Positions 2,955 to 26,690 of a stretch of DNA of 64,000 nucleotides are shown here, in pieces. The position numbers and the translations under genes were made by a program. The notes under the pieces are model-generated. The model was not told the DNA's origin and made no database searches. It saw only the letters and a program-made list of their open reading frames with translations. How positions within the stretch are numbered: the first letter of the stretch is position 1; every line of letters starts with the position of its first letter. The stretch is from Patescibacteria group bacterium (GTDB lineage: Bacteria; Patescibacteriota; JABMPQ01; JAHIRA01), in the NCBI GenBank assembly GCA_018818205.1, contig JAHISJ010000012.1, forward strand, positions 21,523 through 85,522, read 5' to 3'.

Positions 2955-3208
2955 TATTGTATGAGAAAATGGAGGGGCCCCCATTAAATTCTGATTTCAT
3001 GGGGAGGAGGAAAAACATTCTGGAAGCTGGAGTGGGTTCCGAAGGCTTTGCGAAGGAGCACACGTAAGCTGGAAGAATGTATGAAAAAATGGAGGGGCCC
3101 CCGAAAAGTTCCTACTTTTTGGGGAAGAGGAGGAACAATATGGAAGCTGGAGCGGGCTCCGAAGGCTTTGCGGAGGAGCACGCGTAAGCTGGAATATTGT
3201 TCCGACGA
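2955..3208 (+). repeat. tandem duplication (2 x ~121 bp) of a GC-rich element ending CTGGAATATTGTTCCGACG, directly abutting the tRNA-Ser 5' end
   Basis: Copy A 2955-3074 and copy B 3075-3208 are about 85% identical. Both share an internal GGAGGGGCCCCC palindrome. A third copy, inverted, lies at 26565-26690. Confidence 0.8.
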
Positions 3209-3295
3209 GGAGAGGTGGCTGAGTGGTCTAAGGCGACGGTCTTGAAAACCGTTAGGCCCTTACGGGTCTCGTGGGTTCGAATCCCACCCTCTCCG
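3209..3295 (+). tRNA. tRNA-Ser (anticodon TGA), class II with long variable arm, no encoded CCA
   Basis: Acceptor GGAGAGG/CCTCTCC, anticodon stem ACGGT/ACCGT, loop CTTGAAA, T-arm GTGGG-TTCGAAT-CCCAC. Confidence 0.85.
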
Positions 3296-3424
3296 ATTAA
3301 AAATATGCGTGTTCAATTAGAAGTAAAAGCTTTTGGTTTATATCATACTGGCTGAAGGCTTTTTTTGTTGTTTAGTAATCTTGTGTCGCATACGCTTTGT
3401 GTTACTATTATACACAGATGATTA

Positions 3425-3531
3425 CCCTAACAAACATATTCTTACTTGCCAGCATTTCTATTTTGAAGTTCGGATATGATGCTAGATTTGGTATTTATTG
3501 GTAAAGAGTTCGGGTATACGCTAGTTGTATG
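3425..3531 (+). repeat. possible first attC-like site (CCCTAAC ... GTTGTAT)
   Basis: Terminal motifs match the array consensus, but the right part is an inverted copy of the E element seen at 7800-7892. Confidence 0.3.
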
Positions 3532-3893
3532 ACATACATGTTTTCCTTTCGGGGCTATCGCCCCGGCTCTTAAAAAGAATCCGATTTTGTTTTTCTACAT
3601 TACAGAAGGGGTGTATGGTGTTTTCTCCGCTATCGCTCCGAAAACAATTTTATTTATAAGGGGAAAAGAAATTCAATTTTCCAGGTTTAAGTGATTTTAA
3701 AATACGTTATGAAGGCGGAAAAATACCGTTTTTTTGTTTCAAAAAAACGACTTTATTTATAGCAAAAAGGAGATTTATTAGTTATAATTAAAGCAAAATC
3801 TAACCATTCGTTTTTTGCAAAAACAATGAAAAAAATAGCGGAGATAATAAAGGACACAAATTACAGATTCTCATTATTAGATGAGATGTCCTT

Positions 3894-4235
3894 TTGCAAA
3901 ATAACCTTATTGAATTATTTATAAGATATCAATCTATGGATATTTTATATTTAATAATTCCTTCGGTAATTGCTTTTGCAATTATATACTATACCGTTTA
4001 TTACCTTCTCTCTTTAAGAGAACAAAAAATTAGAGATAAGGTGGCCAATGAATTGCTGAGCGATTTTGACTATGAAAAAGAAAAAAAGGAAATTAAATCC
4101 TATGCAAATCTTTTCCAGGTAATTCAAATGTGTCCTATTTGTATCTCATCTTTGGTCTTAAGAGATGGAAAATATGGAGAATTTTGGGGTTGCTCAAGCT
4201 TTCCAAAATGTAGATTTACTAAGAACAAATTTTAA
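3894..4235 (+). CDS. membrane protein with C-terminal topoisomerase-type C4 zinc ribbon
   Basis: N-terminal TM helix and C-terminal CPICISSL...GEFWGCSSFPKC. The stop overlaps the ATG of the next gene. Confidence 0.55.
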   Translation: MQNNLIELFIRYQSMDILYLIIPSVIAFAIIYYTVYYLLSLREQKIRDKVANELLSDFDYEKEKKEIKSYANLFQVIQMCPICISSLVLRDGKYGEFWGCSSFPKCRFTKNKF

Positions 4236-4236
4236 A

Positions 4237-5355
4237 ATGGGCTATTACGAAGACAAAAAACAAGAGTTAGAAGAGTTACTTATCCTAATAAAGGGCGAAA
4301 AAGAGAAGTTAAGAGTTGCTGCACTAAGCGAAAGAAAACAACTAGACGAAGAATTAGAGAAATGTGAAATGATTGAAAATGGTGTAAAGCAACTTACTAA
4401 AGAACGACAAATTGGATTCCCTTGGTTAGCGAAGGCATATGAAGAATTGTTTGCCTTGAGAGATTATGAGCTAGTAAGTTTTCTAAGAAATAAAAGCAAA
4501 CCAGCGTTGAGGGCGAGTGAAATCGTTAAAGAGCAAACCGGGCTTAGAAGAGAAGCAGAGAGCAAAAGGAAAGTTGCTGAATATCTGGTCGAATATTATG
4601 AGTCAATCGCTCCTTTTTTAATAGACTTGAAAGAAGAGGTTGATGATGGTTCTACTGAAGACGGTAAAAGGGTGAACATGGACTATACAAAAGAGGAGAG
4701 AAGTGATGCTGTTTCGGATTATTTAACAAAAGAGGAATATAGGAAGCTTTCGACGGAAAAGAAAAATCAACTTGCTTTAGATAGATTTTGGAAAAGAAGA
4801 AAGTCAAAACAGTTTATTGGTAAACTTTATGAGAGGTATGTAGGTTATCTTTATGAAGAAAAAGGATATGATGTTGATTATGTCGGTATCTTCAAAGGCT
4901 ATGAAGACTTAGGCAGGGACTTAATTTGTGAAAATAAAGATGAAATGGTAGTTATTCAATGTAAAAATTGGTCTAAGTTTAGAACTATTTATGAAAAACA
5001 CATCTTTCAATTTTTTGGAACCGTTTTTCAATATGAAGATGAAAATCCAAATAAGAAAATTAGGGCAATTTTTTACACCTCGACAAGCTTATCAGATTTG
5101 GCTTCAAGATTTGCAAAAAAGCTCGGAATTGAATTAATCGAAAACTTCAAATTAGATCAAAATTATCCATCAATAAAGTGCAATATTTCCAGATCTTCTG
5201 GGGATAAAATTTATCATTTACCCTTTGATCAGCAATATGATAAAACGAAAATAGAAAAAGATAAGGATGAGTTTTATTGTAAAACGATAAAGGAGGCAGA
5301 GAGAGCGGGATTTAGAAGAGCTTTTCGTTATTCGAAATTAGGTAGTCGGAAATAA
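4237..5355 (+). CDS. Mrr-cat type restriction endonuclease domain protein
   Basis: C-terminal block YERYVGYLYEEKGYDVDYVG...DLGRDLICENKDEMVVIQCKNW matches the Mrr-like PD-(D/E)xK pattern. The ORF track starts at 4165; ATG 4237 is coupled to the upstream stop. Confidence 0.55.
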   Translation: MGYYEDKKQELEELLILIKGEKEKLRVAALSERKQLDEELEKCEMIENGVKQLTKERQIGFPWLAKAYEELFALRDYELVSFLRNKSKPALRASEIVKEQTGLRREAESKRKVAEYLVEYYESIAPFLIDLKEEVDDGSTEDGKRVNMDYTKEERSDAVSDYLTKEEYRKLSTEKKNQLALDRFWKRRKSKQFIGKLYERYVGYLYEEKGYDVDYVGIFKGYEDLGRDLICENKDEMVVIQCKNWSKFRTIYEKHIFQFFGTVFQYEDENPNKKIRAIFYTSTSLSDLASRFAKKLGIELIENFKLDQNYPSIKCNISRSSGDKIYHLPFDQQYDKTKIEKDKDEFYCKTIKEAERAGFRRAFRYSKLGSRK

Positions 5356-5405
5356 GAAGATTAAAATTTATCAGATGAAAATTAAAGAGAAAGAGGATAC
5401 TTGGA

Positions 5406-6344
5406 ATGAAAAACTCAATAATCAAATTAGTGAAAGATGAGATTAGGTGGCTTCTAAATTGCAGGTTTTTCTGGATTTTCACAATTATCATTTTAATAAT
5501 TTCTCTTATACTGGAAATTCTTCTTGATTTTGTGAGTGTGCTTGCTAAAGGAATTTTGAAATATTTCATTTTATGCCAAGGTGAGGGAATCGAAGTAAAA
5601 ATAGGTCTTGTGATTGCAATAGGTGCATTATTTGTTGGCATCCAAGAATATATTAGGAAGGATAAAGAAAAGCGTGAATTGCAAAAACAGCATAAGAGAG
5701 CTATTTTAAACGCAATAAAACAGGAACTCTCAATAATGGGTAGCTGGTTAAGAACTGATTATACAAAAGAAAAACTTAATTCTGATAAGAATTATCGGTG
5801 GCATCCTTTTTCTATGGTTCTTCACCCAACAGGCTCAAACTACACTGTTAGGTCTATAGATCCTATCAAATCATATTTATTTTCTGATGATTATATTTTC
5901 GCATTAGTAAAATTTAACCAATATGTTGAAAATTTTCGGAGATTAATTGAAAGAGACATGCTTTATTCTTTTTCTTTTCCTGTACTTCTGCTTCGAGCAG
6001 AAGAAATATTAGACAAAAAAAATCACAAAGCCGCTGATTATATTGATGATTTAAGAGAAAAAAAGAATAAGAAAAAGAAATTAAATCTAGTAGAACTATT
6101 TATTGTGAAAAAGCAGGAATCTATGTTTGCTGTTCATATTGATGGAATAGGTGAGAAATCATGTGAATCGCTTTGCAAGAGTTTTCATGAACTTGAAGAT
6201 TTGACTGAAAAAGAAATCAACAATATTAATGATAATCAAGGATTTAATAAACCAAACTATTTTATTTTTGTTTATTTATTTCAACTTATTTTAATTTCGT
6301 TTGTAATACTTTTATTTATATCTTTATACATCTGCTTTAGTTGA
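5406..6344 (+). CDS. hypothetical membrane protein (TM segments at both ends)
   Basis: Hydrophobic N- and C-termini. No recognisable catalytic motif. Confidence 0.4.
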   Translation: MKNSIIKLVKDEIRWLLNCRFFWIFTIIILIISLILEILLDFVSVLAKGILKYFILCQGEGIEVKIGLVIAIGALFVGIQEYIRKDKEKRELQKQHKRAILNAIKQELSIMGSWLRTDYTKEKLNSDKNYRWHPFSMVLHPTGSNYTVRSIDPIKSYLFSDDYIFALVKFNQYVENFRRLIERDMLYSFSFPVLLLRAEEILDKKNHKAADYIDDLREKKNKKKKLNLVELFIVKKQESMFAVHIDGIGEKSCESLCKSFHELEDLTEKEINNINDNQGFNKPNYFIFVYLFQLILISFVILLFISLYICFS

Positions 6345-6356
6345 AAACAATAGAAA

Positions 6357-6968
6357 ATGGGCAAAAACCAAAAAGAGATAATAGAGAAGTTCAAAAAATT
6401 TACAAGGTGGATGCAAGGTGACATAGAAAAAGCATTGTTTAAGGCCAATGCTAATTTTCTTGTAACTATGGGTATTATGAATTACATCGAAATACTTGGC
6501 GGTTTCATTATTGGTTATTATCAAAAGGATAATCAGGATCAAATAGAAATTAATACAAAAGGTAGAAAACTTGAAACTCTTACTAAATATAGGTTTGGGA
6601 GTTTTTTTTCAAAATTAGGTAGTGATTATGAAAATCTTCTAAATCAAAAAAATTTAAACGTGTATAATGAATTACGGTGTGGTCTAACTCATGAATATTT
6701 ACCTAAAAAGAAAAAATTTTGTATTTACGGACCTGATAAACCGATGGAAGAAAACGAAATAAAGGTGTTGATGAAGAAGTATAAAGACATCGAGGTTGCA
6801 ATTACGTATTCTGCTAGAAAATGGGAGATAAACAACCCAATTCTTTATCGAGATTTTTCAAAGGCCATCGAGGTATTAACAGAGAACATTGTAAATTCAA
6901 AGAAAGATATTTTTAGAATTAATTTCTTTGAGATGGCTCGAAAAATCAATCTTAATAACTTTAATTAA
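6357..6968 (+). CDS. hypothetical protein with a HEPN-like Rx4H motif
   Basis: NELRCGLTHEY contains R-x4-H. Otherwise unassigned. Confidence 0.3.
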   Translation: MGKNQKEIIEKFKKFTRWMQGDIEKALFKANANFLVTMGIMNYIEILGGFIIGYYQKDNQDQIEINTKGRKLETLTKYRFGSFFSKLGSDYENLLNQKNLNVYNELRCGLTHEYLPKKKKFCIYGPDKPMEENEIKVLMKKYKDIEVAITYSARKWEINNPILYRDFSKAIEVLTENIVNSKKDIFRINFFEMARKINLNNFN

Positions 6969-7008
6969 GAAGAAGCCTTAGAAAGTATTACCCTAAACTA
7001 CTAATAAC

Positions 7009-7758
7009 ATGACCTCCTTCTACAAAATCCCTCGTCAACCCTCCTGGAACTACCCCGGCCCAAACTGGAACCTCTCCCGCTCCAAAATCGATTTATTCCT
7101 AAAATGCCCGAAGTGCTTTTATCTTGATAACAAACTTGGCCTCAAGAGACCTCCGGGCTATCCTTTTAATCTAAACACCGCCGTCGACACCCTCCTTAAA
7201 AAAGAATTCGACATCCACCGGGCAAAAAACACAAAACACCCCCTTCAAGAAAAATACGGCATCGACGCTCGGCCGGTTGCTCATGATGAGCTTGATGAGT
7301 GGAGAGAAAATTTCAAAGGGGTGCGTTATTTTCATGAGCAAACGGGCATGACGGTCACCGGGGCGATAGATGATCTTTGGATCAATTCAAAAGATGAATA
7401 TATGGTCGTTGATTATAAGGCGACGAGTAAGGAAGCGGTTATTGATGAACTTAATGAAGATTGGCAGGATGGGTATAAAAGACAGATGGAAGTTTATCAG
7501 TGGCTGCTAAGGAAGAAAGGTTTGAAGGTTTCAAGGACGGGTTACTTTGTTTATTGTAATGGAATCACCGATAAAAAAGCTTTTGACGGGAAGTTGGAAT
7601 TTGATATAACTTTAATTGACTACCGGGGAAACACGACTTGGATTGAACCGACGCTTCTTGAAATAAAAAAATGCCTCAAGAGCAATAAGATTCCAAAGTC
7701 AGACAAAGAATGTGACCATTGTAAATGGTATGACGCACGAAAAGAATATGAAAAATAA
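7009..7758 (+). CDS. PD-(D/E)xK nuclease, Cas4/RecB-like, with terminal Cys pairs
   Basis: IDDLWI...EYMVVDYKAT gives a D...ExK core. CPKC is near the N-terminus and CDHCKW near the C-terminus, suggesting an Fe-S or Zn site. Confidence 0.5.
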   Translation: MTSFYKIPRQPSWNYPGPNWNLSRSKIDLFLKCPKCFYLDNKLGLKRPPGYPFNLNTAVDTLLKKEFDIHRAKNTKHPLQEKYGIDARPVAHDELDEWRENFKGVRYFHEQTGMTVTGAIDDLWINSKDEYMVVDYKATSKEAVIDELNEDWQDGYKRQMEVYQWLLRKKGLKVSRTGYFVYCNGITDKKAFDGKLEFDITLIDYRGNTTWIEPTLLEIKKCLKSNKIPKSDKECDHCKWYDARKEYEK

Positions 7759-7884
7759 GGAGTTTGGGGTAAGGGGCATTCACCCCTTTAATTCCCCTCT
7801 GCCCCTTACCCCAAACAGAAAAACAAAATCGGATTCTTTTTAAGAGCAATCCCGCTAAAGCGGGATAAAAGGAAAACATGTACG
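7759..7884 (+). repeat. E element (stop-proximal repeat starting AGGAGTTTGGGG...GGGCATTCACCCCT)
   Basis: A homologous copy lies at 13270-13392, and an inverted partial copy at 3525-3595. Contains an 11-bp perfect inverted repeat GGGGTAAGGGG/CCCCTTACCCC. Confidence 0.6.
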
Positions 7885-7958
7885 TCATACAACAGTGAGT
7901 ATCAGACATTTATCTTCGCTTCGCTACGATAAACGTCTGATACTCACGAACGTTAGGT
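7885..7958 (+). repeat. attC-like site (TCATACAAC ... GTTAGGT)
   Basis: 20-bp near-perfect stem GTGAGTATCAGACATTTATC/GATAAACGTCTGATACTCAC flanked by AAC and AACGTT. Confidence 0.6.
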
Positions 7959-8844: not shown

Positions 8845-8861
8845 TCGCAAAAAATACATCA

Positions 8862-8932: not shown

Positions 8933-8957
8933 GTCATTTCACCATTAAGTTATAAGT

Positions 8958-9578
8958 ATGAAAGCATTAATAAATTTCTACGCAACAGTCAATGAGAATA
9001 CAATTAACCAACTGCTGAATTTTATTACTCAACAAATCCATATAGGGACTCAGCAACCTGAAAATCCTTTAGAAGAAATTATTATTCAAATTTCTAGTTC
9101 TGGAGGATCTTCAGACCATGGCTTGCTGGCGTACAACTATCTGCAACAAGTAAATGTTCCTAAAACTACAATAGGCATGGGCAATGTAGACAGCGCCGCA
9201 GTAATGATCTTTGCATCAGGCGACAAGCGCTTAACAATGCCTAGTTGCAGATTTTTATTACATGAAGCCCTAACCACCATTAGTGGACAATTCAATGGAA
9301 CAAAACTTCATGAGATCGCTAATCTAAATGAAAGAATAACAACTGACTATTGTAAAGTAATTTCTAAGGCAACTGACAAGAAGACTTTTAGCGTAGAAAA
9401 AAAAGTTAAAGAGGGTCAAGTGATGTCGTCAGAACAAGCGAAAAAATATGGATTAGCACAGGATTTTCAAAATGAGCCATACGTGAAGGACCTTAAGAAT
9501 CTTAATATTCTCATCATAAACAACGTGAAAGATGCAGCTGCGCCACCTCCAAAAAATAAGAACCAGGTTAAAACTTAA
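8958..9578 (+). CDS. ClpP/S14 peptidase-fold protein
   Basis: SSGGSSDHGLLAYNYLQQ...GMGNVDSAAVMIFASG...LLHEA aligns with the ClpP Ser/His regions. Confidence 0.45.
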   Translation: MKALINFYATVNENTINQLLNFITQQIHIGTQQPENPLEEIIIQISSSGGSSDHGLLAYNYLQQVNVPKTTIGMGNVDSAAVMIFASGDKRLTMPSCRFLLHEALTTISGQFNGTKLHEIANLNERITTDYCKVISKATDKKTFSVEKKVKEGQVMSSEQAKKYGLAQDFQNEPYVKDLKNLNILIINNVKDAAAPPPKNKNQVKT

Positions 9579-9590
9579 TGGTGAAACGAC

Positions 9591-9661
9591 ATATAACAAA
9601 GAATATCAGAAATTCATTCCGTTCTACTCCGTGAACTTCTGATATTCTCAAACGTTGTACG
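9591..9661 (+). repeat. attC-like site (CATATAAC ... GTTGTAC)
   Basis: Stem GAATATCAGAAATTCA/TGAACTTCTGATATTC. Confidence 0.6.
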
Positions 9662-10167: not shown

Positions 10168-11190
10168 TTACATCGTACAACTAACTATATCTCCATCAAC
10201 CCCTTTTCCGTGGACAACTAGCTCAAGACTCTGAGCTAGTTTTCTTTTCTTTGAAAGAGGAGTCCCTCTGGTCCAAACAGCATGTATAACGTGAGCCATT
10301 TTATTCATAGTGGCAACTAGAGCAACACGGTAAGGCTTGCCTTCGGAGATCTTCTTTTGGAAGAAATCTTGAAAAAGATTAGGTCTTTGCACCGCTACGG
10401 AAGCGGCGTTGTAGAGTCTGGTTCTTAAGATCTTATTGCCTCTTTTAGTAATGTAGCTTTTGCCTTTGACGCTGGTCCCACTCTCGTGGACCCTGGGGTC
10501 TATTCCTACGTAGGCGGTAAGTTTCTTTGCTTTTTTGAAGCGATCGATGCTACCTAATTCCGAAATGAAGCTGATGGCGGTGATAGGACCAACTCCGGGG
10601 ATGGTCCTTAAAAGCGCTTGCTCCTCTTTTCTGTATTCTTTGAGTTTCTTCTCCAGCTCTTTAATCTTTTGGGTTAACGTTTCGTTAACCTCTTGATAGA
10701 CGGAGTTGATCTTCCTTTTAAGGCATTCTTCCTTGTTAACTATCTCATTTTGCTGCAATCTCAGTTTAAGCTTAATAGCGCTGAGATTGTCCCTTTGTCT
10801 AACAAGGCTTTTTAGGACAACTGAATCGGTTGTTTCACTGAATTCGTAACCCGTTCCGGTTGTCAGACAATACCTAATTAAAAGAGCGTCTTTCTTATCG
10901 GTTTTTACGCTTCTAAGGCTTGTTTGGCTTTGTTTTTTGACTATCAGAGGGTTCATGACATTGATTTTGTAGCCACTTTTTTTGCAATCAAAACAAAGTC
11001 TTAAATGATAGCCTCCCGTTGATTCCACGCCAAGAAGAGTTTCTTGTTTTTGATAGTTATTCTTTTTAAGAACGGTTAAGAAGTTTCCAATGCCTTGATT
11101 GTTGTTTAGAAATTTTCTTGGCTCTGAGGCTTCATTAAAACATGCCCAAAAGTCCGCTTTAGCCATATCAATACCTACATATTTATTCAT
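10168..11190 (-). CDS. IS110 family transposase (DEDD N-domain plus Transposase_20 C-domain)
   Basis: N-terminal VGIDMAK. C-terminal IPGVGPITAISFISELGSIDRF. Confidence 0.8.
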   Translation of the reverse strand: MNKYVGIDMAKADFWACFNEASEPRKFLNNNQGIGNFLTVLKKNNYQKQETLLGVESTGGYHLRLCFDCKKSGYKINVMNPLIVKKQSQTSLRSVKTDKKDALLIRYCLTTGTGYEFSETTDSVVLKSLVRQRDNLSAIKLKLRLQQNEIVNKEECLKRKINSVYQEVNETLTQKIKELEKKLKEYRKEEQALLRTIPGVGPITAISFISELGSIDRFKKAKKLTAYVGIDPRVHESGTSVKGKSYITKRGNKILRTRLYNAASVAVQRPNLFQDFFQKKISEGKPYRVALVATMNKMAHVIHAVWTRGTPLSKKRKLAQSLELVVHGKGVDGDIVSCTM

Positions 11191-15530: not shown

Positions 15531-15699
15531 ATAAAGTCCTAGATAATAGGAATTGGCTCTTCTTTTCAATCCTTGACATCTCAAGTCCTCCATGTTATAA
15601 TACTGACTAAATCTGTCTCTATTTTTAAACTTCGCCTAACAGAGAGTATCAGAAATTCATCTCCACTCCGTTCCGATAAACTTCTGATACTCTCGAACG

Positions 15700-17025
15700 C
15701 ACTAGTGTTGCGTCAAAACTCCCCCGGTTTAAGCCGTTTTTGATGATTATTCTCTAGAGTTTGTAATCCAGATTGTGCAATTAGTGTAGTTAAAGGGGTT
15801 TTCTCAAATTGAGAGACCTGTAAAATTTGTAGAATTTCGTAGAGATTTCGTTTGATCTTTAGTTTCTTTTTCATAATAGCTACTAGAAGAAAGGTGGATA
15901 TTGCAATGCAAATTTGTGTTTTTACTGCATTGAACGAATAGCCCCAGAAGACTTGAATTTTAAGATGCTGCTTTATCCATTTGAAAAAGAGTTCTATCTG
16001 CCAACGATGTTTGTAAAGGTTGGCTATGGTTTTAGCCGGTATGTTGAAATTGTTAGTAAGATAAATATAGGATCTGTTTGTTTCCCGGTCAACGTATTTA
16101 ATACGTCTCAGTTTCTCCGGATAGTGCTTACGTGAATAAAAATGTTTTAGTTTAATTATTTGGTCGCATCTAAGTCCGGTGGCTTTATCTACTTTGTTTG
16201 AATAAATTCTTTTAAACGATAAGCTTTTTTTTGAGCGGACAATGAAAAACGCTTCATGCCGGTTAACAGTCATTAACCTTTTAAAATCGAGATAGCCTCG
16301 ATCCATAATATATATTGCGTCTTTTTCAAATTCGATATTGTCCAGGAAATTCACATCATGTGTTTTCGCTTTGGTTATGAGGAAAAATGAAGGAATGGTG
16401 CCTTTTAAATCAAGTTGCGTGTGAATCTTTACCGCTGATTTTTGAAGTTCAAAGTATGCCCACTTGAATGTTGCTAAACACAGATCTATTACCGTTGAAT
16501 CAAGAGCATAGACAGAATTTTCAAGCTCGATTGAAAACTCATTGTCATAAAGGTACAGACGACGTGTGATGCCAATGAGATACTCGGTAAAATCACGATG
16601 AATTCTCCAGTCACGAAATTGGTTAGCACGCGATAATGTGGAAAGGACGAATTTCCTTGCCCTAAAGCCTAGATGATACAGTTGGTTGGGATGGGCATTC
16701 AAACACAGAACTATTCCACGCAGACTTTTTAAAGCAGTTAGTTGTCCAAACATCAATGAGAGGAATTGGTCGCGGCAAGTTAGATTATATATATTTTTGT
16801 TTCCATTGTATCTCTCAACACATTTTTCAAATTCGTACCCGGAAACATATTCTACAACTTGAGAAAAGATATATTTTTCCTTGTTCATAGATAATTAGCA
16901 AATTAATTGAAAAACACGCTAATTATCCCATTCCAAGTTCAAATCGTAAAATTGTAAAATAGCTGGATTTGATGTAGTGTTAGGTAAAATACTTGATACT
17001 ATTCGTGGAAGACGCAACGCTAGTG
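15700..17025 (-). mobile_element. IS4-family insertion sequence
   Basis: Termini CACTAGTGTTGCGTC and GACGCAACGCTAGTG form an imperfect inverted repeat. Alternatively the element is TTGCGTC...GACGCAA with an 8-bp target duplication. Confidence 0.55.
15713..16888 (-). CDS. IS4 family DDE transposase
   Basis: YKHRWQIELFFKWIK matches the Y(2)R(3)E(6)K signature. Confidence 0.75.
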   Translation of the reverse strand: MNKEKYIFSQVVEYVSGYEFEKCVERYNGNKNIYNLTCRDQFLSLMFGQLTALKSLRGIVLCLNAHPNQLYHLGFRARKFVLSTLSRANQFRDWRIHRDFTEYLIGITRRLYLYDNEFSIELENSVYALDSTVIDLCLATFKWAYFELQKSAVKIHTQLDLKGTIPSFFLITKAKTHDVNFLDNIEFEKDAIYIMDRGYLDFKRLMTVNRHEAFFIVRSKKSLSFKRIYSNKVDKATGLRCDQIIKLKHFYSRKHYPEKLRRIKYVDRETNRSYIYLTNNFNIPAKTIANLYKHRWQIELFFKWIKQHLKIQVFWGYSFNAVKTQICIAISTFLLVAIMKKKLKIKRNLYEILQILQVSQFEKTPLTTLIAQSGLQTLENNHQKRLKPGEF

Positions 17026-21188: not shown

Positions 21189-21218
21189 GTAATTCAAATT
21201 GTTTCTAAATATTTTTCT

Positions 21219-21677
21219 ATGATTAAAATTCGGACATTCAGAAATAGTGACACTTCTGAAATAATCAGACTTACTACCACGGTAGTAAAGGAATTTCTAG
21301 ATTATACCGATGAGGACTTGCAAGATTTAATCACTGATTTATCTGATATAAAGAAAAACTATCTTGATAAGGGCGGAAATTTTATTGTATGCACAATCAA
21401 TGATAATATTATTGGAACTATCGCATTACTACCTCAGAAAAAACATGTAGTTAAATTAAAAAGAATGTACTTATACAAAGCATACCGAGGGAAAGAGCAT
21501 GGTTCAAACATTTTTAATTTTGCGGAAAACTGGTGCAAGGACAATGATTTTAATAAAATAATTTTATCAACCTACCCGCCTTTTACTGGTTCAAAATTTT
21601 ACAAAAAAATGGGATTCAATATATACAAAAATATTGGTAAAAAAACGTTTTACGAAAAATATTTAGAAACAATTTAA
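21219..21677 (+). CDS. GNAT family N-acetyltransferase
   Basis: KRMYLYKAYRGKEHGSNIF acetyl-CoA binding region. The ORF track starts at 21183; the likely ATG is at 21219. Confidence 0.6.
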   Translation: MIKIRTFRNSDTSEIIRLTTTVVKEFLDYTDEDLQDLITDLSDIKKNYLDKGGNFIVCTINDNIIGTIALLPQKKHVVKLKRMYLYKAYRGKEHGSNIFNFAENWCKDNDFNKIILSTYPPFTGSKFYKKMGFNIYKNIGKKTFYEKYLETI

Positions 21678-21705
21678 ACTCTCCGCTGTCGCTCCGCTCT
21701 TCGGG

Positions 21706-21766
21706 TCATACAACAGCGCATATCCAAAATCGCTTCGCGACTTCGAATGAAACGCAAACGTTATGT
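21706..21766 (+). repeat. attC-like site (TCATACAAC ... GTTATGT)
   Basis: Stem GCGCATATCC / GAATGAAACGC (imperfect). Confidence 0.55.
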
Positions 21767-21832
21767 GACATGCCATTAATTTTTAATGTTCAATAGAGCC
21801 TAGAATGATATAATTATTAAATATTAATTAAA

Positions 21833-22939
21833 ATGATGGGTATCGAAGATGCAAAAAATCCAGAAATTATAGATCAATCGATAGAACATCCTGTTGCCGA
21901 TATTCCAAAGTCAGAAAAACAAACTGCGCAAAAAGAAGCTTCACCAGAAAAAAGAATGCAAGCTGAAAAAACAGTGTTGGATACACTTGGGATTGGATCA
22001 GATGAAAAGTTAGATGATTTTGATAAAAAACTAAATGAAGCAACAAAATCATTGCCCAGATACCAACAAATTGAGAAAAAGCTTGAAGGAATTGAACGAC
22101 AAAATCTGCCTTATGAACTATTCAAAGCGTTAAAGAGAGATTCAGATGAAGAACAGATTGATCAGAATGCGCCAAAAGACGGGGTTTTGATTCAATCAAT
22201 GAAACAAGGACCACTTGCGTGCGCAGGCAGAACCTTAATAGCCTCATCTCTTTTACAAGAACATGGGATAGGCCACGTGCCTGTTTCTGCGCCAAAACAT
22301 GCTTTAATAATTATTGAGCAATCGCCAGATACGATGGCATATTTTGACGCTAACAATAATCTTTTCTTCACATTTCCAAAATCAGCCCTTGACGGCTATG
22401 AAGGGTTAGAAACATCTGCAGAATGTAGGCTCAAGGAATACACTCCAAGAGAAACGGATTTTAATGACGGAATAACGACAGCTTATTCTCACTTTGTTGC
22501 AATGCCTGCAAAAGAAGCTATTGGAAGGCAATATTTGGGCAACGTTGCGGCAGCTCTAAATGGAAATGAAGAATTTGAGTCAAGTGGCATTACGAAAGAT
22601 GAAGAAGCCTCTGAAGCCACTCATCAAATTGAAACCGAAGTATATGGCGTAAACCCAGTACTCGTTAGTTTCCATTCAAGAGTCGAGACACTTTATAAGA
22701 AAGAAAAGGCACGAACTGCAAGCTATAGAAAAGTAGCAAGTGAAGTTTTGCAAACACACCCCACACATGATGATTTTGTTTCTTTTTTTACAAAGGTTTT
22801 AGACGGAAATATCAGCGACGGAATTCCCTTTATTAAAAATGCTTCTCCTGAACGAAAAAGAGTATACGCTGACAATGTCTGGGATTTTCTGCAGAAAGAA
22901 ATAAAGACGAAAGCAAAAGAGGAAGATAAAAATATTTAA
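21833..22939 (+). CDS. hypothetical protein
   Basis: ORF only. Confidence 0.4.
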   Translation: MMGIEDAKNPEIIDQSIEHPVADIPKSEKQTAQKEASPEKRMQAEKTVLDTLGIGSDEKLDDFDKKLNEATKSLPRYQQIEKKLEGIERQNLPYELFKALKRDSDEEQIDQNAPKDGVLIQSMKQGPLACAGRTLIASSLLQEHGIGHVPVSAPKHALIIIEQSPDTMAYFDANNNLFFTFPKSALDGYEGLETSAECRLKEYTPRETDFNDGITTAYSHFVAMPAKEAIGRQYLGNVAAALNGNEEFESSGITKDEEASEATHQIETEVYGVNPVLVSFHSRVETLYKKEKARTASYRKVASEVLQTHPTHDDFVSFFTKVLDGNISDGIPFIKNASPERKRVYADNVWDFLQKEIKTKAKEEDKNI

Positions 22940-22946
22940 TGGCACA

Positions 22947-23017
22947 TCATATAACAAGGTTTATCTGAAATTCACTCCACTACGTTCCATGATCTTCAGA
23001 TAAACAATACGTTGTCT
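22947..23017 (+). repeat. attC-like site (TCATATAAC ... GTTGTCT)
   Basis: Stem GTTTATCTGAA/TTCAGATAAAC. Confidence 0.6.
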
Positions 23018-23157
23018 GAAATACATTTTTTATACTACTTAAATGCTTTGTGTGCACAAGTAGTGTTTGCCTAATTGCTACATATATGATACAATTGACA
23101 GCAATAAAATGGCTTTAATAAGACATATTTAGTAACTAAATGCTACATAATTAATGT

Positions 23158-24312
23158 ATGGTTGTTACATCTAAACATTCAAAAATCACACTCTTTGAAC
23201 CAGATTTCGGGTCAAGTCTTACTGATCTAATTATTGAGCTTGATTATCTTCGTAAAAAACCTCTTGGTGGAACTACTCACCCAGTGATTTTTTTTCAACT
23301 AAAAAATATATTCCATATGCTTGAGAGCATTGGTTCTTCTAGAATCGAGGGGAACCACACAACAGTAGCTGAGTATATTGAGACAAAGATAGAAGGGAAA
23401 AAATCTAAAAATGAAAAAGATATAGAAATTCAGAACCTTGAGAAAGCAATGGAATTTATTGATAAAAATGTCAAAAAATATAAAGTAAACAGAATTTTTC
23501 TAAGCGAGCTACATAAACAAGTAGTAAAAGATCTTACCTCACCTCCTAGTGGCGAAGGAAGTGTAGATCCTGGTCAATACAGAGCGAAGAATTGTGAAAT
23601 TGTGAAATCTAAACATATTCCGCCAGACTTCACACAAGTAGATGATTACATGAAAGAATTTTTTAACTTTATCAATAAAGAGAGTGCTGCAAAATACGAT
23701 TTGTTAAAAGTTGCCGTTTCTTATCATCGTTTTGCATGGATTCATCCATTTGATAATGGGAATGGAAGAACCGTTAGATTACTAACATATGCGATGTTAG
23801 TAAAACAAGGATTCAATGTAAACGTTGGAAGAATTTTGAATCCAACGGCTATTTTTTGTATTGATCGCAAGAAATACTATGATGCACTTTCTTGGGCCGA
23901 TAGGGGTACAAAAAAAGGAGAACTTGAATGGTGTGAATACGTTCTGTCAGGACTCAAGAAAGAAATAGAAAAAATTGATAAGCTTTCTGACTATGAATAT
24001 CTTGCAAATAAAATTCTGATTCCCATGATATCATACTCTTTAGATAGGAAGACTATTACAGATCTAGAGTCTAAAATATTGCGAATTGCTGTTGAGAAAC
24101 AGGTTTTTATGTCTTCAGATATAAAAACACTTATGCCTAATAAAGTATATACTGAGAGATCTAGAGTTTTACGAAAACTAAAGAACAAGAAGATGATTGC
24201 CCCCGAAAAGGGTAAATCAAGGAAGTATACCCTAAGATTTGATAATAACTATCTCCTAAGAGGTGTCATTGATGCTTTAGAAAAAGAGGGATTTATTCCA
24301 ATTAGAAATTAA
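23158..24312 (+). CDS. Fic family protein
   Basis: HPFDNGNGRTVR. Confidence 0.8.
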   Translation: MVVTSKHSKITLFEPDFGSSLTDLIIELDYLRKKPLGGTTHPVIFFQLKNIFHMLESIGSSRIEGNHTTVAEYIETKIEGKKSKNEKDIEIQNLEKAMEFIDKNVKKYKVNRIFLSELHKQVVKDLTSPPSGEGSVDPGQYRAKNCEIVKSKHIPPDFTQVDDYMKEFFNFINKESAAKYDLLKVAVSYHRFAWIHPFDNGNGRTVRLLTYAMLVKQGFNVNVGRILNPTAIFCIDRKKYYDALSWADRGTKKGELEWCEYVLSGLKKEIEKIDKLSDYEYLANKILIPMISYSLDRKTITDLESKILRIAVEKQVFMSSDIKTLMPNKVYTERSRVLRKLKNKKMIAPEKGKSRKYTLRFDNNYLLRGVIDALEKEGFIPIRN

Positions 24313-24331
24313 ATAGAAGAGAATTTACTTC

Positions 24332-24397
24332 AGACAACTAAGAATATCAGAAATTCATTCCGCTCCGATAAGCTTCTGTTACACACAAACGTTAGGC
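24332..24397 (+). repeat. attC-like site (AGACAAC ... GTTAGGC)
   Basis: Homologous to the 9591 site. Confidence 0.55.
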
Positions 24398-24417
24398 GAT
24401 GTAATTATTAAATTTTT

Positions 24418-24954
24418 ATGAAATTATTAGAACTAGCTACCGATGAGGTAGTGACAATGGATGATTATCCAATACATGATTTATTAGACGGTGATAGTGT
24501 AATAATAAAACTGTATTTTAGAATTTTTCAAAAAAAGTGCACAAGTATTATTGCTAGAGTTATTGTTCTCCCAAAAGAATTGATAGTGTCTTCTTTCACT
24601 GAAGCAACAAAGAAAAATTTTGCAAATTTTGAAAAGAGCCACCCAAAAGTAAAATACTTTGCACTAGATGGTAATCATCGAACTACTGCTGCATCACTCA
24701 CGCAATCCAAAATTCCAGCACTACTTCTTAAAAATGATAAGGATTGTAAAGATATACAAAAAATGAATGATAGCGCTGGTGTTTTTAGACCTTATACTAA
24801 TAATACGCTCAATGAATGTGTTCTTGAGTTAAAAGATCATTTTTTAAAAGTTGATCAGTTTTATACTGTAAGAGAAAAAACTAGAATGATGGTTGAAGAT
24901 ATATCAATAGATATGCCTCAATACATGAGGGATAGCTTTAACCGAAAAATATAA
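24418..24954 (+). CDS. ParB/Srx-like nuclease domain protein (tentative)
   Basis: ALDGNHRTTAA resembles the ParB N-terminal domain core motif. Confidence 0.35.
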   Translation: MKLLELATDEVVTMDDYPIHDLLDGDSVIIKLYFRIFQKKCTSIIARVIVLPKELIVSSFTEATKKNFANFEKSHPKVKYFALDGNHRTTAASLTQSKIPALLLKNDKDCKDIQKMNDSAGVFRPYTNNTLNECVLELKDHFLKVDQFYTVREKTRMMVEDISIDMPQYMRDSFNRKI

Positions 24955-24978
24955 TAATTACATCGCCTAACGTTCGAG
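24955..24978 (+). repeat. minimal junction TAATTACATC-GCCTAAC|GTTCGAG; its left part is the inverted partner of 24388-24407
   Basis: A 20-bp perfect inverted repeat (AACGTTAGGCGATGTAATTA / TAATTACATCGCCTAACGTT) flanks ORF 24418-24954. Confidence 0.6.
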
Positions 24979-24991
24979 AATATCATAGAAC

Positions 24992-25672
24992 ATGAATATT
25001 AAAAAACATAGCACAGCAAAAGGCTCACAACGCGCCACCGGCATTGTTGTGATCATTGACGTCCTTCGAGCATGCACAACTATTCCTATACTTCTGAAGA
25101 ACGGTGCAGACACCATTATCCCTGTAAAAACCATTGATGATGCTCAGAAATATCTAAACCGTGGTTATGTGCTTATAGGAGAAGGTAAAAATGGTTGTAT
25201 CCACGATTCATTCCATTATTGCAACTCACCTTCTGAAATTCACTCGATAGATTTTACAGAAAAAAATTTAGTAATTAGAAGTAACAACGCAACACAAGCA
25301 ATTCTCAATATTGAGAAGGCTACAGACATTATTTTAGCTTCATTTGTTAATCTTGAAGCGATAGTAACCTACATCAATGATCACTACGCCAAAGATGTGG
25401 CGCTTGTCCCTCTTGGCAGATTAAACCAAGAGGGGTTGGAAGATGAATTATGCGCTGAAGCAATCAAATTGCGTCTCGAGAATACCTTTTTTGATTTCGA
25501 AAAGATGAAAAAAGAGATAAATGACTGTCCTTGTGCAAAGCTCGTCAGAGATACGCTAGATAAACCAGAAGATGTGGCATTTGCATTAGAACTTAATTCA
25601 TATCCAATAGTTCCCAAAGTCTATACAGAAGACGGGCAAAAAGTTATCAAAAATGCTAGCCTTAATGACTAA
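24992..25672 (+). CDS. ComB-like 2-phosphosulfolactate phosphatase family protein
   Basis: N-terminal GIVVIIDVLRACTT is typical of the family. Confidence 0.45.
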   Translation: MNIKKHSTAKGSQRATGIVVIIDVLRACTTIPILLKNGADTIIPVKTIDDAQKYLNRGYVLIGEGKNGCIHDSFHYCNSPSEIHSIDFTEKNLVIRSNNATQAILNIEKATDIILASFVNLEAIVTYINDHYAKDVALVPLGRLNQEGLEDELCAEAIKLRLENTFFDFEKMKKEINDCPCAKLVRDTLDKPEDVAFALELNSYPIVPKVYTEDGQKVIKNASLND

Positions 25673-25682
25673 GAAACAAACA

Positions 25683-25765
25683 TCATATAACAAGTCCATC
25701 AAAAACTCACTCCACGTCGCTCTATGAACTTCGGGTACTCTCGGGCACTAGGCAAACTGTTAACC
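25683..25765 (+). repeat. attC-like site (TCATATAAC ... GTTAACC), last in array
   Basis: Homologous to the left half of the IS-split site at 15634. Confidence 0.5.
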
Positions 25766-25827
25766 ACAATCTCCTTCTCCCCTTTTAAAAACTATGCTAC
25801 TATATAATTGAAAATTAAATTACATGT

Positions 25828-26415
25828 ATGCCTGAAGAAGAAACAAAAGATCCAAACCCAGAGCAAAAAAGAGAAAAAGCGCCTTCGCGTCTTACGAGTG
25901 AAGACATTAAAGAGTATTTGCAGTCAACGGAGCAAACGACCGAGCCTCAAAATATACTCATGCAATGGGAGGCACCTGAGTTTAAGCAGGTTTCAAGACC
26001 ACGACAATGGTACATTCTTTTTGGAATTGTAGGCGTAGCCATTGCAATATTCGCAGTCATAACTGCAAACTACCTCTTTGCCCTTATAATCGTGCTTCTT
26101 GCGGTTGTTTTAAACTCATTTTTTAGTAAAAAACCAAAGAAACTTTCCTTTGCCATTACCCCTGAAGGTATAGTTGTCAATAAGAAACTGTATGTATTTG
26201 GACAAGAGGTTCAATCATTTTGGATACTCTATGATCCCCCAAATTTAAAATCACTTCACTTTGGAAAACGATCATCACTCCAACCAAGCATTACTGTTGA
26301 GCTTCAGGATCAAAATCCACTTAAAGTAAGAGAAATTCTGCTTAACTACCTCCCAGAAGATGTTGAACGAGAAGAGCATCCCGTTGATTCAACTTTTAGA
26401 AACTGGGGATTTTAG
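25828..26415 (+). CDS. hypothetical membrane protein (two TM helices)
   Basis: Central hydrophobic pair. Own promoter-like TATAAT at 25803-25808. Confidence 0.45.
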   Translation: MPEEETKDPNPEQKREKAPSRLTSEDIKEYLQSTEQTTEPQNILMQWEAPEFKQVSRPRQWYILFGIVGVAIAIFAVITANYLFALIIVLLAVVLNSFFSKKPKKLSFAITPEGIVVNKKLYVFGQEVQSFWILYDPPNLKSLHFGKRSSLQPSITVELQDQNPLKVREILLNYLPEDVEREEHPVDSTFRNWGF

Positions 26416-26443
26416 CAAAAAAGTCTTCAAACTAGTTCTAAAA

Positions 26444-26469
26444 AATGCTACTCTATTGGAGTAGCTTTT
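26444..26469 (+). terminator. intrinsic terminator
   Basis: GCTACTCTATTGGAGTAGC followed by TTTTT. Confidence 0.55.
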
Positions 26470-26491
26470 TATGTGTGGAAATACTTTTGAT

Positions 26492-26564
26492 GCCCCGATA
26501 GCTCAGTGGATAGAGCGCTTCCCTGCGGAGGAAGAGGTCGGACGTTCGAGTCGTCCTCGGGGCA
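26492..26564 (+). tRNA. tRNA-Arg (anticodon GCG), no encoded CCA
   Basis: Acceptor GCCCCGA/TCGGGGC, anticodon stem CTTCC/GGAAG, loop CTGCGGA, T-arm GGACG-TTCGAGT-CGTCC. Confidence 0.8.
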
Positions 26565-26690
26565 CGTCGGAACAATATTCCAGTCTGCGCATGCACCTTC
26601 GCTACGCTACGGTGCCTGCTCCGACTTCCATATTGTTCCTCCTTCTCCCCAAGAAATCAGAATTTCTCGGGGGCCCCATTCTCTTGTTTT
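26565..26690 (-). repeat. inverted copy of the ~120-bp tRNA-linked element, abutting the tRNA-Arg 3' end via the same CTGGAATATTGTTCCGACG terminus
   Basis: The reverse complement aligns to copy B at 3075-3208, including the GGGGCCCCC palindrome and GGAGGAACAATATGGAAG. Confidence 0.75.

What the first reader, a model, noticed from the sequence alone, without database searches (positions are those of the whole stretch)
2955..26690. The same ~120-bp GC-rich element abuts both tRNAs in inverted orientation, bracketing the whole cassette region
A tandem pair at 2955-3208 ends CTGGAATATTGTTCCGACG directly at the 5' nucleotide of tRNA-Ser. An inverted copy at 26565-26690 ends with the same 19 nt directly at the 3' nucleotide of tRNA-Arg. 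The unit [repeat>][tRNA-Ser ... 23 kb array ... tRNA-Arg][<repeat] is therefore bounded by ~120-bp inverted repeats, each joined to a tRNA at the identical position. Each copy has an internal GGGGCCCC palindrome, and 160 bp of further hairpins follow the right copy. Possible roles are boundaries of an integrated or invertible island, tRNA-targeting recombination sites, or a structured RNA. The orientation is inconsistent with a simple shared promoter.
Basis: seen in the sequence. Interest (0 to 1): 0.55.

Follow-up and report, generated by a model that had tools for sequence, protein, structure and literature searches.

The report
Structured repeat docked on tRNA genes
A previously undescribed ~120-base folded DNA/RNA element sits exactly five bases outside the end of six different tRNA genes in one Patescibacteria genome; it therefore marks tRNA genes, not the gene-cassette island it seemed to bracket.

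Summary
About 2.3 tandem units (2932-3207, +) end one base before tRNA-Ser(TGA). One inverted unit (26565-26686, -) starts right after the discriminator base of tRNA-Arg(GCG).

The unit is a strongly supported two-hairpin fold. On nine units, 94.7% of cells pair, 15 of 35 pairs show compensatory changes, and 0 of 500 shuffles reach this. G.U outnumbers A.C 12:1 on one ("sense") strand.

The same family sits at four more tRNA genes of the same MAG: Ser-GGA, Ser-GCT, Tyr-GTA and Pro-TGG. The geometry is always the same: closing helix, five nucleotides, then base pair 1-72 of a cloverleaf on the unit's own strand. That cloverleaf is a tRNA at the three Ser genes and the reverse complement of a tRNA at Arg, Tyr and Pro. 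About 133 kb of this genome holds no tRNA-independent copy. Syntenic sites in relatives are empty.

The "island bracket" is therefore incidental, because six of nine tRNAs seen carry units. The element matches no Rfam family, and this genome's attC models do not hit it. It shows no terminal inverted repeats and no general target duplication.

Best reading (about 0.4): a non-autonomous element, or RNA gene, that spreads through a single-stranded sense intermediate and docks at cloverleaf feet. At tRNA-Ser it would be expressed as an RNase-P-released leader. The mechanism is unproven.

The parts
2852..2880 (+). Sigma-70-like promoter candidate (TTGACT-17-GATAAT). It lies just after the comF stop, about 50 nt upstream of the array, and is a possible start of the unit-plus-tRNA-Ser transcript.
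   Evidence: 10 of 12 matches. This is a consensus match only.
2932..2964 (+). Oldest remnant of the array: the 3' part of a unit (3' half of hairpin 2).
   Evidence: It aligns to the 3' third of units A and B.
2965..3084 (+). Unit A, the tRNA-distal copy. It is intact except for a weakened closing helix and has no GACG tail.
   Evidence: 131 bits; MFE -36.9; 31 Watson-Crick pairs, 1 G.U, 3 mismatches.
3085..3207 (+). Unit B, the tRNA-proximal copy. It comprises an A-rich lead, hairpin 1 (11 bp), a GGGGARRAGGA linker, hairpin 2 (10+4+3+5+2 bp with GGA/GGA and GGA/GUA 3x3 loops) and the tail GACG (3204-3207).
   Evidence: MFE -54.1, z -5.6; 148 bits.
3209..3295 (+). tRNA-Ser(TGA). Its G1 lies 5 nt (GACGA) after the closing helix of unit B.
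   Evidence: It is syntenic with tRNA-Ser(TGA) after comF in relative L015.
26447..26465 (.). Bidirectional terminator-like hairpin, 26 nt upstream of tRNA-Arg. It would also end any sense-strand transcript running unit C then mirror tRNA-Arg.
26492..26564 (+). tRNA-Arg(GCG). All stems are Watson-Crick, so its reverse complement also folds as a cloverleaf.
   Evidence: In relative L013 the same tRNA lies 12 nt before the recG ATG with no element.
26565..26686 (-). Unit C, opposite-strand copy. Its tail GACG abuts the complement of discriminator A26564.
   Evidence: 138 bits; MFE -53.1, z -6.7; 34 Watson-Crick pairs, 1 G.U.
26687..26764 (-). Decayed unit upstream (in the sense direction) of unit C. 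The linker and the 5' strand of stem a are recognisable; the middle of hairpin 2 is deleted.
   Evidence: Reading. It scores below the CM threshold.
26765..26872 (-). 'X' module: overlapping, mutually exclusive hairpins built around GAGATCCCGGAT / ATCCGGGATCTC. Homologous copies lie upstream of the units at the tRNA-Ser(GGA) and tRNA-Ser(GCT) loci.

Best explanation
What it is (well supported). This is a lineage-restricted family of non-coding units of about 120 nt. Each folds on one strand only (the 'sense' strand) into two hairpins. Each terminal unit is docked at the outer edge of a tRNA gene, so that exactly five nucleotides (GACG or GAAC plus one) separate its closing helix from base pair 1-72 of a cloverleaf on the same strand.
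- At the three tRNA-Ser genes the cloverleaf is the tRNA itself. The units lie upstream, co-oriented and in tandem.
- At tRNA-Arg, tRNA-Tyr and tRNA-Pro the cloverleaf is the reverse complement of the tRNA. A single unit lies downstream on the opposite strand.
- The window's two copies bracket the attC cassette array only because that array lies between two occupied, ancestral tRNA genes.

How it most likely works (inferred).
- It is a non-autonomous element that propagates within the genome through a single-stranded sense intermediate, RNA or ssDNA.
- It is inserted at the foot of a cloverleaf-forming sequence, which it recognises by structure rather than by sequence.
- At tRNA-Ser genes the units are necessarily transcribed as the pre-tRNA 5' leader. 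RNase P would release them with a defined ...GACGA 3' end. These copies are the plausible sources.
- Repeated insertion or duplication at one tRNA builds arrays. In these the tRNA-proximal unit is intact and the distal ones decay.
For: Shown:
1. Fold. RNAalifold gives 35 pairs, 11 of them compensatory among three copies. On nine units 94.7% of cells pair, 15 of 35 pairs have double changes, 0 of 500 shuffles reach this, and slid registers pair only 33-47%.
2. Strand specificity. The sense strand folds about 10 kcal/mol better. G.U to A.C is 12:1 in intact units, and 7:0 in the opposite-strand copies.
3. Docking rule at 6 of 6 junctions. These are Ser-TGA and Arg-GCG, Ser-GGA, Pro-TGG, and Ser-GCT and Tyr-GTA.
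4. No tRNA-independent copy in about 133 kb of the MAG, using two models.
5. All loci belong to one MAG: protein accessions MBU1118619 to MBU1118932, locus-tag prefix KKH43.
6. Orthologous sites are empty in relatives whose RecG is 62% and 56% identical.
7. In all four arrays the tRNA-proximal unit scores highest and the distal ones are truncated or decayed.
8. Unit identities show no clustering by locus type, so units have moved or converted between configurations.

Inferred: the single-stranded intermediate, structure-based targeting, and RNase P release.
Against: - No transposase, reverse transcriptase, HUH or TnpB-like gene lies next to any copy or in about 150 kb searched. That search was a crude tblastn, plus Pfam tables.
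- No two units are more than 89% identical, so there is no sign of recent transposition.
- Opposite-strand copies show no stem mismatches other than G.U. That looks like selection in place rather than dead insertions.
- There are no terminal inverted repeats and no general target-site duplication.
- All upstream arrays are at tRNA-Ser (p about 0.012). Pure structure-based targeting does not predict this.
- Internal array junctions mostly lack the old GACG tail that serial insertion predicts.
- The family has so far been seen in a single MAG.
Confidence: 0.4

Rival explanations
1. Resident functional small RNA. The sense strand is a GGA-rich structured RNA, possibly a protein sponge of the CsrB/RsmZ type. 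Its gene must be fused to a cloverleaf because RNase P cleavage at the tRNA, or at the mirror tRNA, makes its 3' end. On this view the copies are paralogues kept by selection, not transposition products.
For: - Units are old (69-89% identical) yet keep 32-34 of 35 pairs, with many compensatory changes.
- G.U versus A.C bias holds on the sense strand even at opposite-strand loci.
- Only the cloverleaf-adjacent unit of each array stays intact.
- The 5-nt spacing is constant and the GACG tail is conserved.
- The mirror tRNA-Arg is predicted to fold as a cloverleaf and is followed by a terminator on that strand.
- The X module lies upstream in the sense orientation at three loci.
- There are 18 GGA against 4 TCC in the 276-nt array.
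- Precedents from my own knowledge: plant tRNA-snoRNA genes, MALAT1-mascRNA, and leader- or trailer-derived bacterial sRNAs.
Against: - At the Tyr and Pro loci the evident transcription unit (promoter, tRNA, unit, then terminator or the next tRNA) produces the antisense strand.
- At the Pro locus there is no room for a sense promoter.
- No convincing sense promoter was found.
- The mirror tRNA-Tyr would carry an A.C mismatch in its acceptor stem.
- RNase P cleavage of mirror tRNAs is unproven in bacteria.
- No csrA was seen.
- One unit replaces the GGA/GGA loop by Watson-Crick pairs.
Confidence: 0.3
2. Cis-acting part of tRNA transcription units. A bulky helix placed next to the acceptor stem, in the 5' leader at Ser or the 3' trailer at Arg, Tyr and Pro, would tune processing or stability, or insulate the tRNA from neighbouring transcription.
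For: - The units lie inside the obvious tRNA transcription units.
- At tRNA-Arg the insert sits between the tRNA and recG. In a relative these are 12 nt apart and presumably co-transcribed.
- The distance from the acceptor stem is constant.
Against: - The transcribed RNA would be sense at Ser but antisense elsewhere, and the antisense fold is the one that tolerates mismatches.
- No U-tract follows the hairpins, and at the Tyr locus a separate terminator follows the unit.
- Relatives and three tRNAs of the same genome do without it.
Confidence: 0.1
3. Boundary or recombination sites of the cassette island. On this view the inverted units are sites for inversion or excision of the tRNA-bounded segment, or non-canonical integron (attC/attI-like) sites used by the XerA/IntI-like recombinase of this genome.
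For: - Inverted pairs enclose a tRNA-bounded segment twice: Ser-TGA to Arg (23 kb attC array) and Ser-GCT to Tyr (5.2 kb).
- The Ser-GGA locus lies beside an integron-integrase-like gene and an attC array.
- An invariant AACA/UGUU core sits inside a covarying stem. Folding on a single strand is also how attC sites work.
Against: - Two attC HMMs built from this genome hit 17 attC sites (13 in the window, 4 in L030) and never a unit.
- Architecture differs. Units have no R/L boxes with extrahelical bases and do not sit at cassette 3' ends.
- The Ser-GCT to Tyr segment has no attC site.
- The Pro unit sits alone between two tRNAs.
- The flanking tRNAs are ancestral.
- With 6 of 9 tRNAs occupied, pairing is expected by chance.
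Confidence: 0.08
4. Generic intergenic repeat or assembly artefact with no real link to tRNAs.
For: Short-read unitig assemblies break inside units. One JGI contig start disagrees with the ENA assembly.
Against: - The loci are identical in the NCBI, ENA and JGI assemblies.
- Six of six junctions are in the same register, p about 1e-25.
- No non-tRNA copy was found in about 133 kb.
Confidence: 0.01

Closest known systems
Small RNAs fused to tRNAs or tRNA-like structures and matured by RNase P or RNase Z (plant tRNA-snoRNA dicistrons, MALAT1-mascRNA, gammaherpesvirus tRNA-miRNA, E. coli 3'ETS-leuZ). This comparison rests on my own knowledge.
   Same: A structured RNA directly abuts a tRNA, so a tRNA-processing enzyme would define its end. 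At the three tRNA-Ser genes the units are, by position, pre-tRNA leader.
   Different: - Half of the copies here abut the reverse complement of a tRNA.
- The element is multi-copy, tandem and present or absent between relatives.
- No expression data exist.
Bacterial structured dispersed repeats and MITEs (REP/BIME/REPIN, BOX, RUP, Correia, ERIC)
   Same: They are short, non-coding, multi-copy and intergenic, with stable hairpins and modular or tandem arrangement, and they are restricted to a lineage.
   Different: - These units have no terminal inverted repeats and no general target duplication.
- Copies are only 69-89% identical, with compensatory changes.
- The fold is strand-specific.
- Every copy lies in one exact register against a tRNA gene end, which is not described for those families.
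Integron attC sites
   Same: - They work as hairpins folded from one DNA strand.
- They have a conserved AAC/GTT core inside variable stems.
- They occur in the same genome, next to two of the loci.
   Different: - The genome's attC HMMs do not match the units.
- Helix and loop architecture differs.
- Units do not lie at cassette 3' ends.
- Units also occur where there is no array.
IS200/IS605-derived non-autonomous elements and TnpB omega-RNA loci
   Same: Their biology is single-stranded and strand-specific, with a hairpin near each end and a structured 3' part that ends exactly at the element-flank junction.
   Different: - No conserved target motif lies on the 5' side.
- No tnpA or tnpB was seen.
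- The two hairpins are unrelated to each other.
- Specificity lies on the 3' flank and is structural.
tRNA-gene-targeting retrotransposons of eukaryotes (Ty3, Dictyostelium TRE5/TRE3). This comparison rests on my own knowledge.
   Same: They integrate in fixed positions next to tRNA genes of many specificities, either upstream or downstream.
   Different: - Those elements are autonomous.
- They are guided by RNA polymerase III factors.
- They land tens of bases away from the tRNA, not at a 5-nt register, and they are eukaryotic.

Membership tests
Any Rfam RNA family | Covariance-model match at or near the gathering score | tested here: not met
   (gathering) found only the two tRNAs and DUF3800-IX. 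(E up to 10) found nothing credible over the units or X.
Integron attC site | Sequence and profile similarity to the attC sites of the same genome | tested here: not met
   nhmmer with two attC subtype HMMs finds 13 sites in the window and 4 in L030, and none at 2932-3207 or 26565-26872. R1 gives attC sites at most 14 bits.
Integron attC site | Conserved AAC...GTT core triplets paired at the base of the hairpin | tested here: inconclusive
   AACA/UGUU is invariant in stem a while neighbouring pairs covary. However, the flanks do not fit RYYYAAC/GTTRRRY, and there is no asymmetric spacer or extrahelical base.
Integron attC site | Located at the 3' end of a gene cassette within an array | tested here: not met
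   Units lie outside the array, against tRNAs. The Tyr, Ser-GCT and Pro loci have no attC nearby.
MITE (DDE-transposon derived) | Terminal inverted repeats | tested here: not met
   The 5' end (A-rich lead plus GGGGCCCCC) and the 3' end (GTTCCGACG) are unrelated.
MITE (DDE-transposon derived) | Target-site duplication | tested here: not met
   No shared flank duplication exists at the Arg, Tyr and Pro loci. Only the Ser loci show GGAG on both sides, which is also part of the unit start.
Genomic-island att sites at tRNA genes | Direct repeat of the tRNA 3' segment at the far end of the island | tested here: not met
   The 21-nt 3' ends of both tRNAs occur once each in the window, allowing up to 3 mismatches.
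Genomic-island att sites at tRNA genes | tRNA plus flanking element delimits DNA that is absent from relatives | tested here: inconclusive
   The interval between the tRNAs is variable between relatives. But the units lie outside the tRNAs, and they also occur where no island is evident.
IS200/IS605 derivative or TnpB omega-RNA | Associated tnpA(Y1) or tnpB gene, or a conserved 4-5 nt target 5' of the left end | tested here: not met
   There are no such ORFs next to any copy, and tblastn was negative (low sensitivity). The 5' flanks share no motif.
IS110 bridge RNA | Encoded in the non-coding end of an IS110 element, with two large programmable internal loops | tested here: not met
   The only IS110-family gene (10168-11190) lies 7 kb from the nearest unit and its flanks score no more than 10 bits with R1. 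The unit's loops are 3x3 and conserved, not variable.
Type III toxin-antitoxin RNA repeats (ToxI-like) | Tandem repeats of about 35-45 nt directly upstream of an endoribonuclease toxin gene | tested here: not met
   The period is 120 nt and the repeats are followed by a tRNA, not an ORF.
tRNA-linked RNA matured by RNase P or RNase Z | Stable RNA whose end coincides with the tRNA processing site | not testable with these tools
   The junction geometry fits (6 of 6), but no transcript data are available.
CsrB/RsmZ-type sponge RNA | Multiple exposed GGA motifs plus a CsrA-family partner | tested here: inconclusive
   There are 6-8 GGA per unit on the sense strand. No csrA was found in about 150 kb, which is only about 15% of a typical genome of this group, and Rfam Csr/Rsm models do not match.

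The most novel reading that the evidence does not exclude
A new class of bacterial element that reads the shape of a tRNA gene rather than its sequence. It would be a small RNA or ssDNA module that homes to, or can only function at, the foot of a cloverleaf on its own strand. It would treat a tRNA and the mirror image of a tRNA alike. RNase P cleavage at true and mirror tRNAs, or a still unknown structure-specific integrase, would define its end. This would be the first structure-guided tRNA-homing element, or the first mirror-tRNA processing signal, in bacteria.
Probability: 0.3. Interest if true: 0.85.

Novelty: new variant of a known kind. Interest (0 to 1): 0.6.

Why it matters
- If the docking rule reflects a mechanism, something in this cell recognises the base of a cloverleaf on either strand and places or trims a 120-nt structured module there. 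In bacteria, tRNA-directed integration is known for integrases that use tRNA sequence. It is not known for elements that use tRNA shape.
- It would also give a concrete, testable case of 'mirror tRNAs' acting as signals outside mitochondria.
- Practically, the family explains contig breaks at tRNA loci in this MAG.
- It shows that the cassette array is not delimited by special repeats.
- It supplies a covariation-supported RNA motif from the poorly known Patescibacteria.

Tried and rejected
- **Rfam.** Gathering and permissive searches gave nothing.
- **GTDB species representatives.** I scanned with TGGAAGNNGGAGN{33,38}CTGGAANANTGT. All 10 hits were chance, being CM-negative. In hindsight the pattern was too strict: it misses the Ser-GGA, Pro and Tyr units. 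Absence from other genomes is therefore not shown.
- **Other collections.** Two IMG/VR scans gave only chance hits. PLSDB and phage blastn gave no match.
- **Coding potential.** AGGAGG-N6-ATG followed by a 9-15 codon ORF occurs in some units, but the ATG is CTG or CCG in three. Substitutions are compensatory in stems, so this was rejected.
- **Intrinsic terminator.** No U-tract follows either hairpin on either strand, and the Tyr locus has its own terminator after the unit.
- **Promoter inside the unit.** No consistent -35/-10 motifs were found.
- **Single-stranded exposure on the lagging-strand template.** Rejected, because co-linear loci carry units on opposite strands.
- **Cruciform in duplex DNA.** Rejected because of the 12:1 G.U to A.C bias.
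- **A CM hit at L027 131-253.** This is an unrelated 64-nt perfect palindrome.
- **'JGI contigs end at units'.** My early inference was wrong for two of the three loci, because the stored loci were pieces of longer contigs.

Full report
**Observation.**
- The window has two tRNA genes: tRNA-Ser(TGA) at 3209-3295 and tRNA-Arg(GCG) at 26492-26564, both on the plus strand.
- A tandem array with a 120-nt period occupies 2932-3207. Its last 19 nt, CTGGAATATTGTTCCGACG, end at 3207, one base before G1 of tRNA-Ser.
- The reverse complement of the same 19-mer starts at 26565, directly after the discriminator base of tRNA-Arg. It opens an inverted unit at 26565-26686.
- The three copies show 78% mean column identity.
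- A covariance model built from them (R1) finds only these three in the 64 kb, even with all filters off.

**Structure.**
- Each unit folds into an 11-bp hairpin, a purine-rich linker (GGGGARRAGGA) and a long interrupted hairpin. The long hairpin has helices of 10, 4, 3, 5 and 2 bp, separated by conserved GGA/GGA and GGA/GUA 3x3 loops.
- Among the three window copies, 11 of 35 pairs already show compensatory changes.
- The plus strand of A and B and the minus strand of C fold at -54 and -53 kcal/mol (z -5.6 and -6.7). That is about 10 kcal/mol better than their complements.
- With nine units from six loci, 94.7% of cells pair and 15 of 35 pairs have changes on both sides. No shuffle in 500 reaches this, and slid registers pair only 33-47%.
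- G.U outnumbers A.C 12:1 in intact units. The fold is therefore selected on one strand, as RNA or ssDNA, and not as a duplex cruciform.
- No Rfam family matches.

**Source and relatives.**
- The window comes from a Patescibacteria MAG. Its RecG is 100% identical to MBU1118619, and the nearest other RecG is 62% identical.
- In relatives the order comF, tRNA-Ser(TGA), variable DNA, a conserved 195-aa gene, tRNA-Arg(GCG), recG is kept. tRNA-Arg lies 12 nt before the recG ATG, and there is no unit there.
- The tRNAs are therefore ancestral, and the units are additions outside them.

**More copies.**
- A JGI metagenome pattern scan, followed by protein-anchored retrieval, gave four further loci.
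- Consecutive NCBI accessions and the KKH43 locus tags show that all four belong to the same MAG.
- The complete set is:
  - Upstream and co-oriented: tRNA-Ser(TGA), tRNA-Ser(GGA) and tRNA-Ser(GCT), each with 2-3 tandem units.
  - Downstream on the opposite strand: tRNA-Arg(GCG), tRNA-Tyr(GTA) and tRNA-Pro(TGG), with one intact unit each.
- In every case the closing helix is followed by GACG (GAAC at Pro) plus one base, and then position 1 of a cloverleaf on the unit's own strand.
- That one base is A before G1 of tRNA-Ser, or the complement of discriminator A73 at the other loci.
- tRNA-Thr(GGT), tRNA-Thr(TGT) and tRNA-Ala(CGC) carry none.
- An improved model (R2) finds no tRNA-independent copy in about 133 kb of the MAG, and none in the relatives' loci.

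- The inverted pair does bracket the attC cassette array, which spans about 3.5-25.75 kb (attC hits).
- However, the units are a property of tRNA genes, not of the array. They also flank a 5.2-kb attC-free segment (Ser-GCT to Tyr) and sit alone in the tRNA-Pro to tRNA-Ala spacer.
- There are no duplicated tRNA fragments.
- The genome's attC HMMs never hit a unit.
- With six of nine tRNAs occupied, neighbouring occupied tRNAs are expected.
- The extra hairpins to the right of unit C are a decayed unit plus a module ('X'). X recurs upstream of the units, in the sense direction, at the Ser-GGA and Ser-GCT loci.

**Mechanism: what each line of evidence favours.**
- Evidence for spread:
  - Orthologous sites in relatives are empty.
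  - Unit similarity does not cluster by locus type.
  - In all four arrays the tRNA-proximal unit is intact and the distal ones are truncated or decayed.
- Evidence for selection in place:
  - No two units exceed 89% identity.
  - The opposite-strand units have 32-34 Watson-Crick pairs, only G.U exceptions, and no A.C.
- The complication:
  - At the Tyr locus a promoter, the tRNA, the unit and a terminator form one plus-strand transcription unit. At the Pro locus the unit fills the spacer of a tRNA-Pro to tRNA-Ala operon.
  - The strand that is evidently transcribed at those loci is therefore the antisense one.
  - At tRNA-Ser the sense strand is necessarily the pre-tRNA leader, and RNase P would release it.
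- Supporting fold: the sense transcript of unit C is predicted to fold into the unit, then a mirror cloverleaf, then a terminator hairpin.
- My preferred reading (0.4): a non-autonomous element propagating through a sense single-stranded intermediate and docking at cloverleaf feet, with the tRNA-Ser leaders as expressed sources.
- The main rival (0.3): a resident, GGA-rich small RNA that needs a neighbouring true or mirror tRNA for RNase P to form its 3' end (GGA counts).
- A cis-acting role in tRNA transcripts (0.1) and an island or integron recombination role (0.08) fit less well.

**Limits.**
- All copies come from one MAG and one sample.
- My GTDB pattern was too strict, so absence elsewhere is not established.
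- No expression data exist and no partner protein was found.
- The restriction of upstream arrays to tRNA-Ser (p about 0.012) is unexplained.

**Verdict.** This is a real, covariation-supported and apparently undescribed tRNA-docked structured element. The island-boundary interpretation is not supported.

Noticed in passing
window 3500-25750: An integron-type cassette array with at least 13 attC sites of two subtypes: 7879, 8854, 9585, 13383, 15627, 17411, 18616, 20225, 21080, 21684, 22942, 24326 and 25679. No integrase lies inside it, so it is a CALIN in a Patescibacteria genome. Cassettes encode Fic, NUDIX, GNAT, an Mrr-like nuclease and others.
   Followed up: partly
L030 10712-11617 (-) and 12100-18220 (same MAG): A XerA/integron-integrase-like tyrosine recombinase: NF040815 at 212 bits (cut-off 220) and TIGR02249 at 175 bits. 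The ORF stops at LLGHI, before the catalytic tyrosine. It is followed by an attC array of the same subtypes as the window's, and it lies 770 nt downstream of tRNA-Ser(GGA).
   Followed up: partly
window 10168-11190 (-) and 15713-16888 (-): An IS110-family RNA-guided transposase (NF033542, 208 bits) and an IS4-like DDE transposase (DUF4372 plus DDE_Tnp_1) are inserted in the cassette array. The second abuts the attC site at 15627-15705. This is reminiscent of attC-targeting IS1111/IS110 elements.
   Followed up: no
window 3524-3596 and 7817-7893: Inverted repeats of 73 nt, 96-100% identical, flank a 4.2-kb block that carries Zn-ribbon, Mrr-like and PD-(D/E)XK nuclease genes. The left arm is an inverted copy of the R'' side of the attC at 7879. 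This may be an inversion or an inverted cassette junction at the very start of the array.
   Followed up: no
window 26765-26872; L030 about 9500-9620; L033 2748-2790: The 'X' module is a conserved core, GAGATCCCGGAT plus a hairpin, with an upstream segment (ATCCGGGATCTC) that can pair with it instead. This gives mutually exclusive hairpins. X always lies upstream of the units in their sense orientation. It has no Rfam match and its function is unknown.
   Followed up: partly
window 3090-3096 with 3288-3294; L030 and L033 equivalents: Units next to tRNA-Ser start with GGAGGGG, a near copy of the tRNA-Ser 5' acceptor strand GGAGAGG. RNAfold pairs this motif with the tRNA's 3' acceptor strand in the leader-tRNA transcript. 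It could be an acceptor-stem mimic, a microhomology for tandem duplication, or chance.
   Followed up: no
L033 3110-3165: In the unit next to tRNA-Ser(GCT) the conserved GGA/GGA internal loop is replaced on both sides by GUA/UAC, which are three Watson-Crick pairs. Helix continuity may therefore matter more than loop identity.
   Followed up: no
window 52715-52778 (+): A DUF3800-IX RNA motif (Rfam RF02968, 55.5 bits) lies immediately beside the 3' end of a DUF3800-family gene (52778-53413, -).
   Followed up: no
window about 25000-29000: Cumulative GC skew peaks at about 25-26 kb, and the gene strand switches from plus to minus at about 29 kb. This may be a replication terminus region, or simply an effect of coding strand.
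   Followed up: no
L027 144-207 (about window coordinate 72.1 kb, beyond the window): A 64-nt perfect palindrome lies between a xerC/D-like recombinase gene and rpsO. It gave a false weak hit with the unit model.
   Followed up: yes
L022 1-53 versus L033 8603-8620: The JGI contig Ga0180007_10004608 begins with a second unit joined at CTGGAAT|GACG|GGGCCCCC. The ENA assembly has tRNA-Tyr at that point instead. This is either a chimeric assembly through the repeat or a real copy-number or arrangement variant. Logan unitigs also break inside three units.
   Followed up: partly
L015 362-1332 (relative, RecG 56% identical): Three tandem GIY-YIG ORFs of about 100 aa lie between comF and a tRNA-Ser(GCT)-tRNA-Ser(TGA) pair. 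In the studied genome this place is occupied by the unit array.
   Followed up: no
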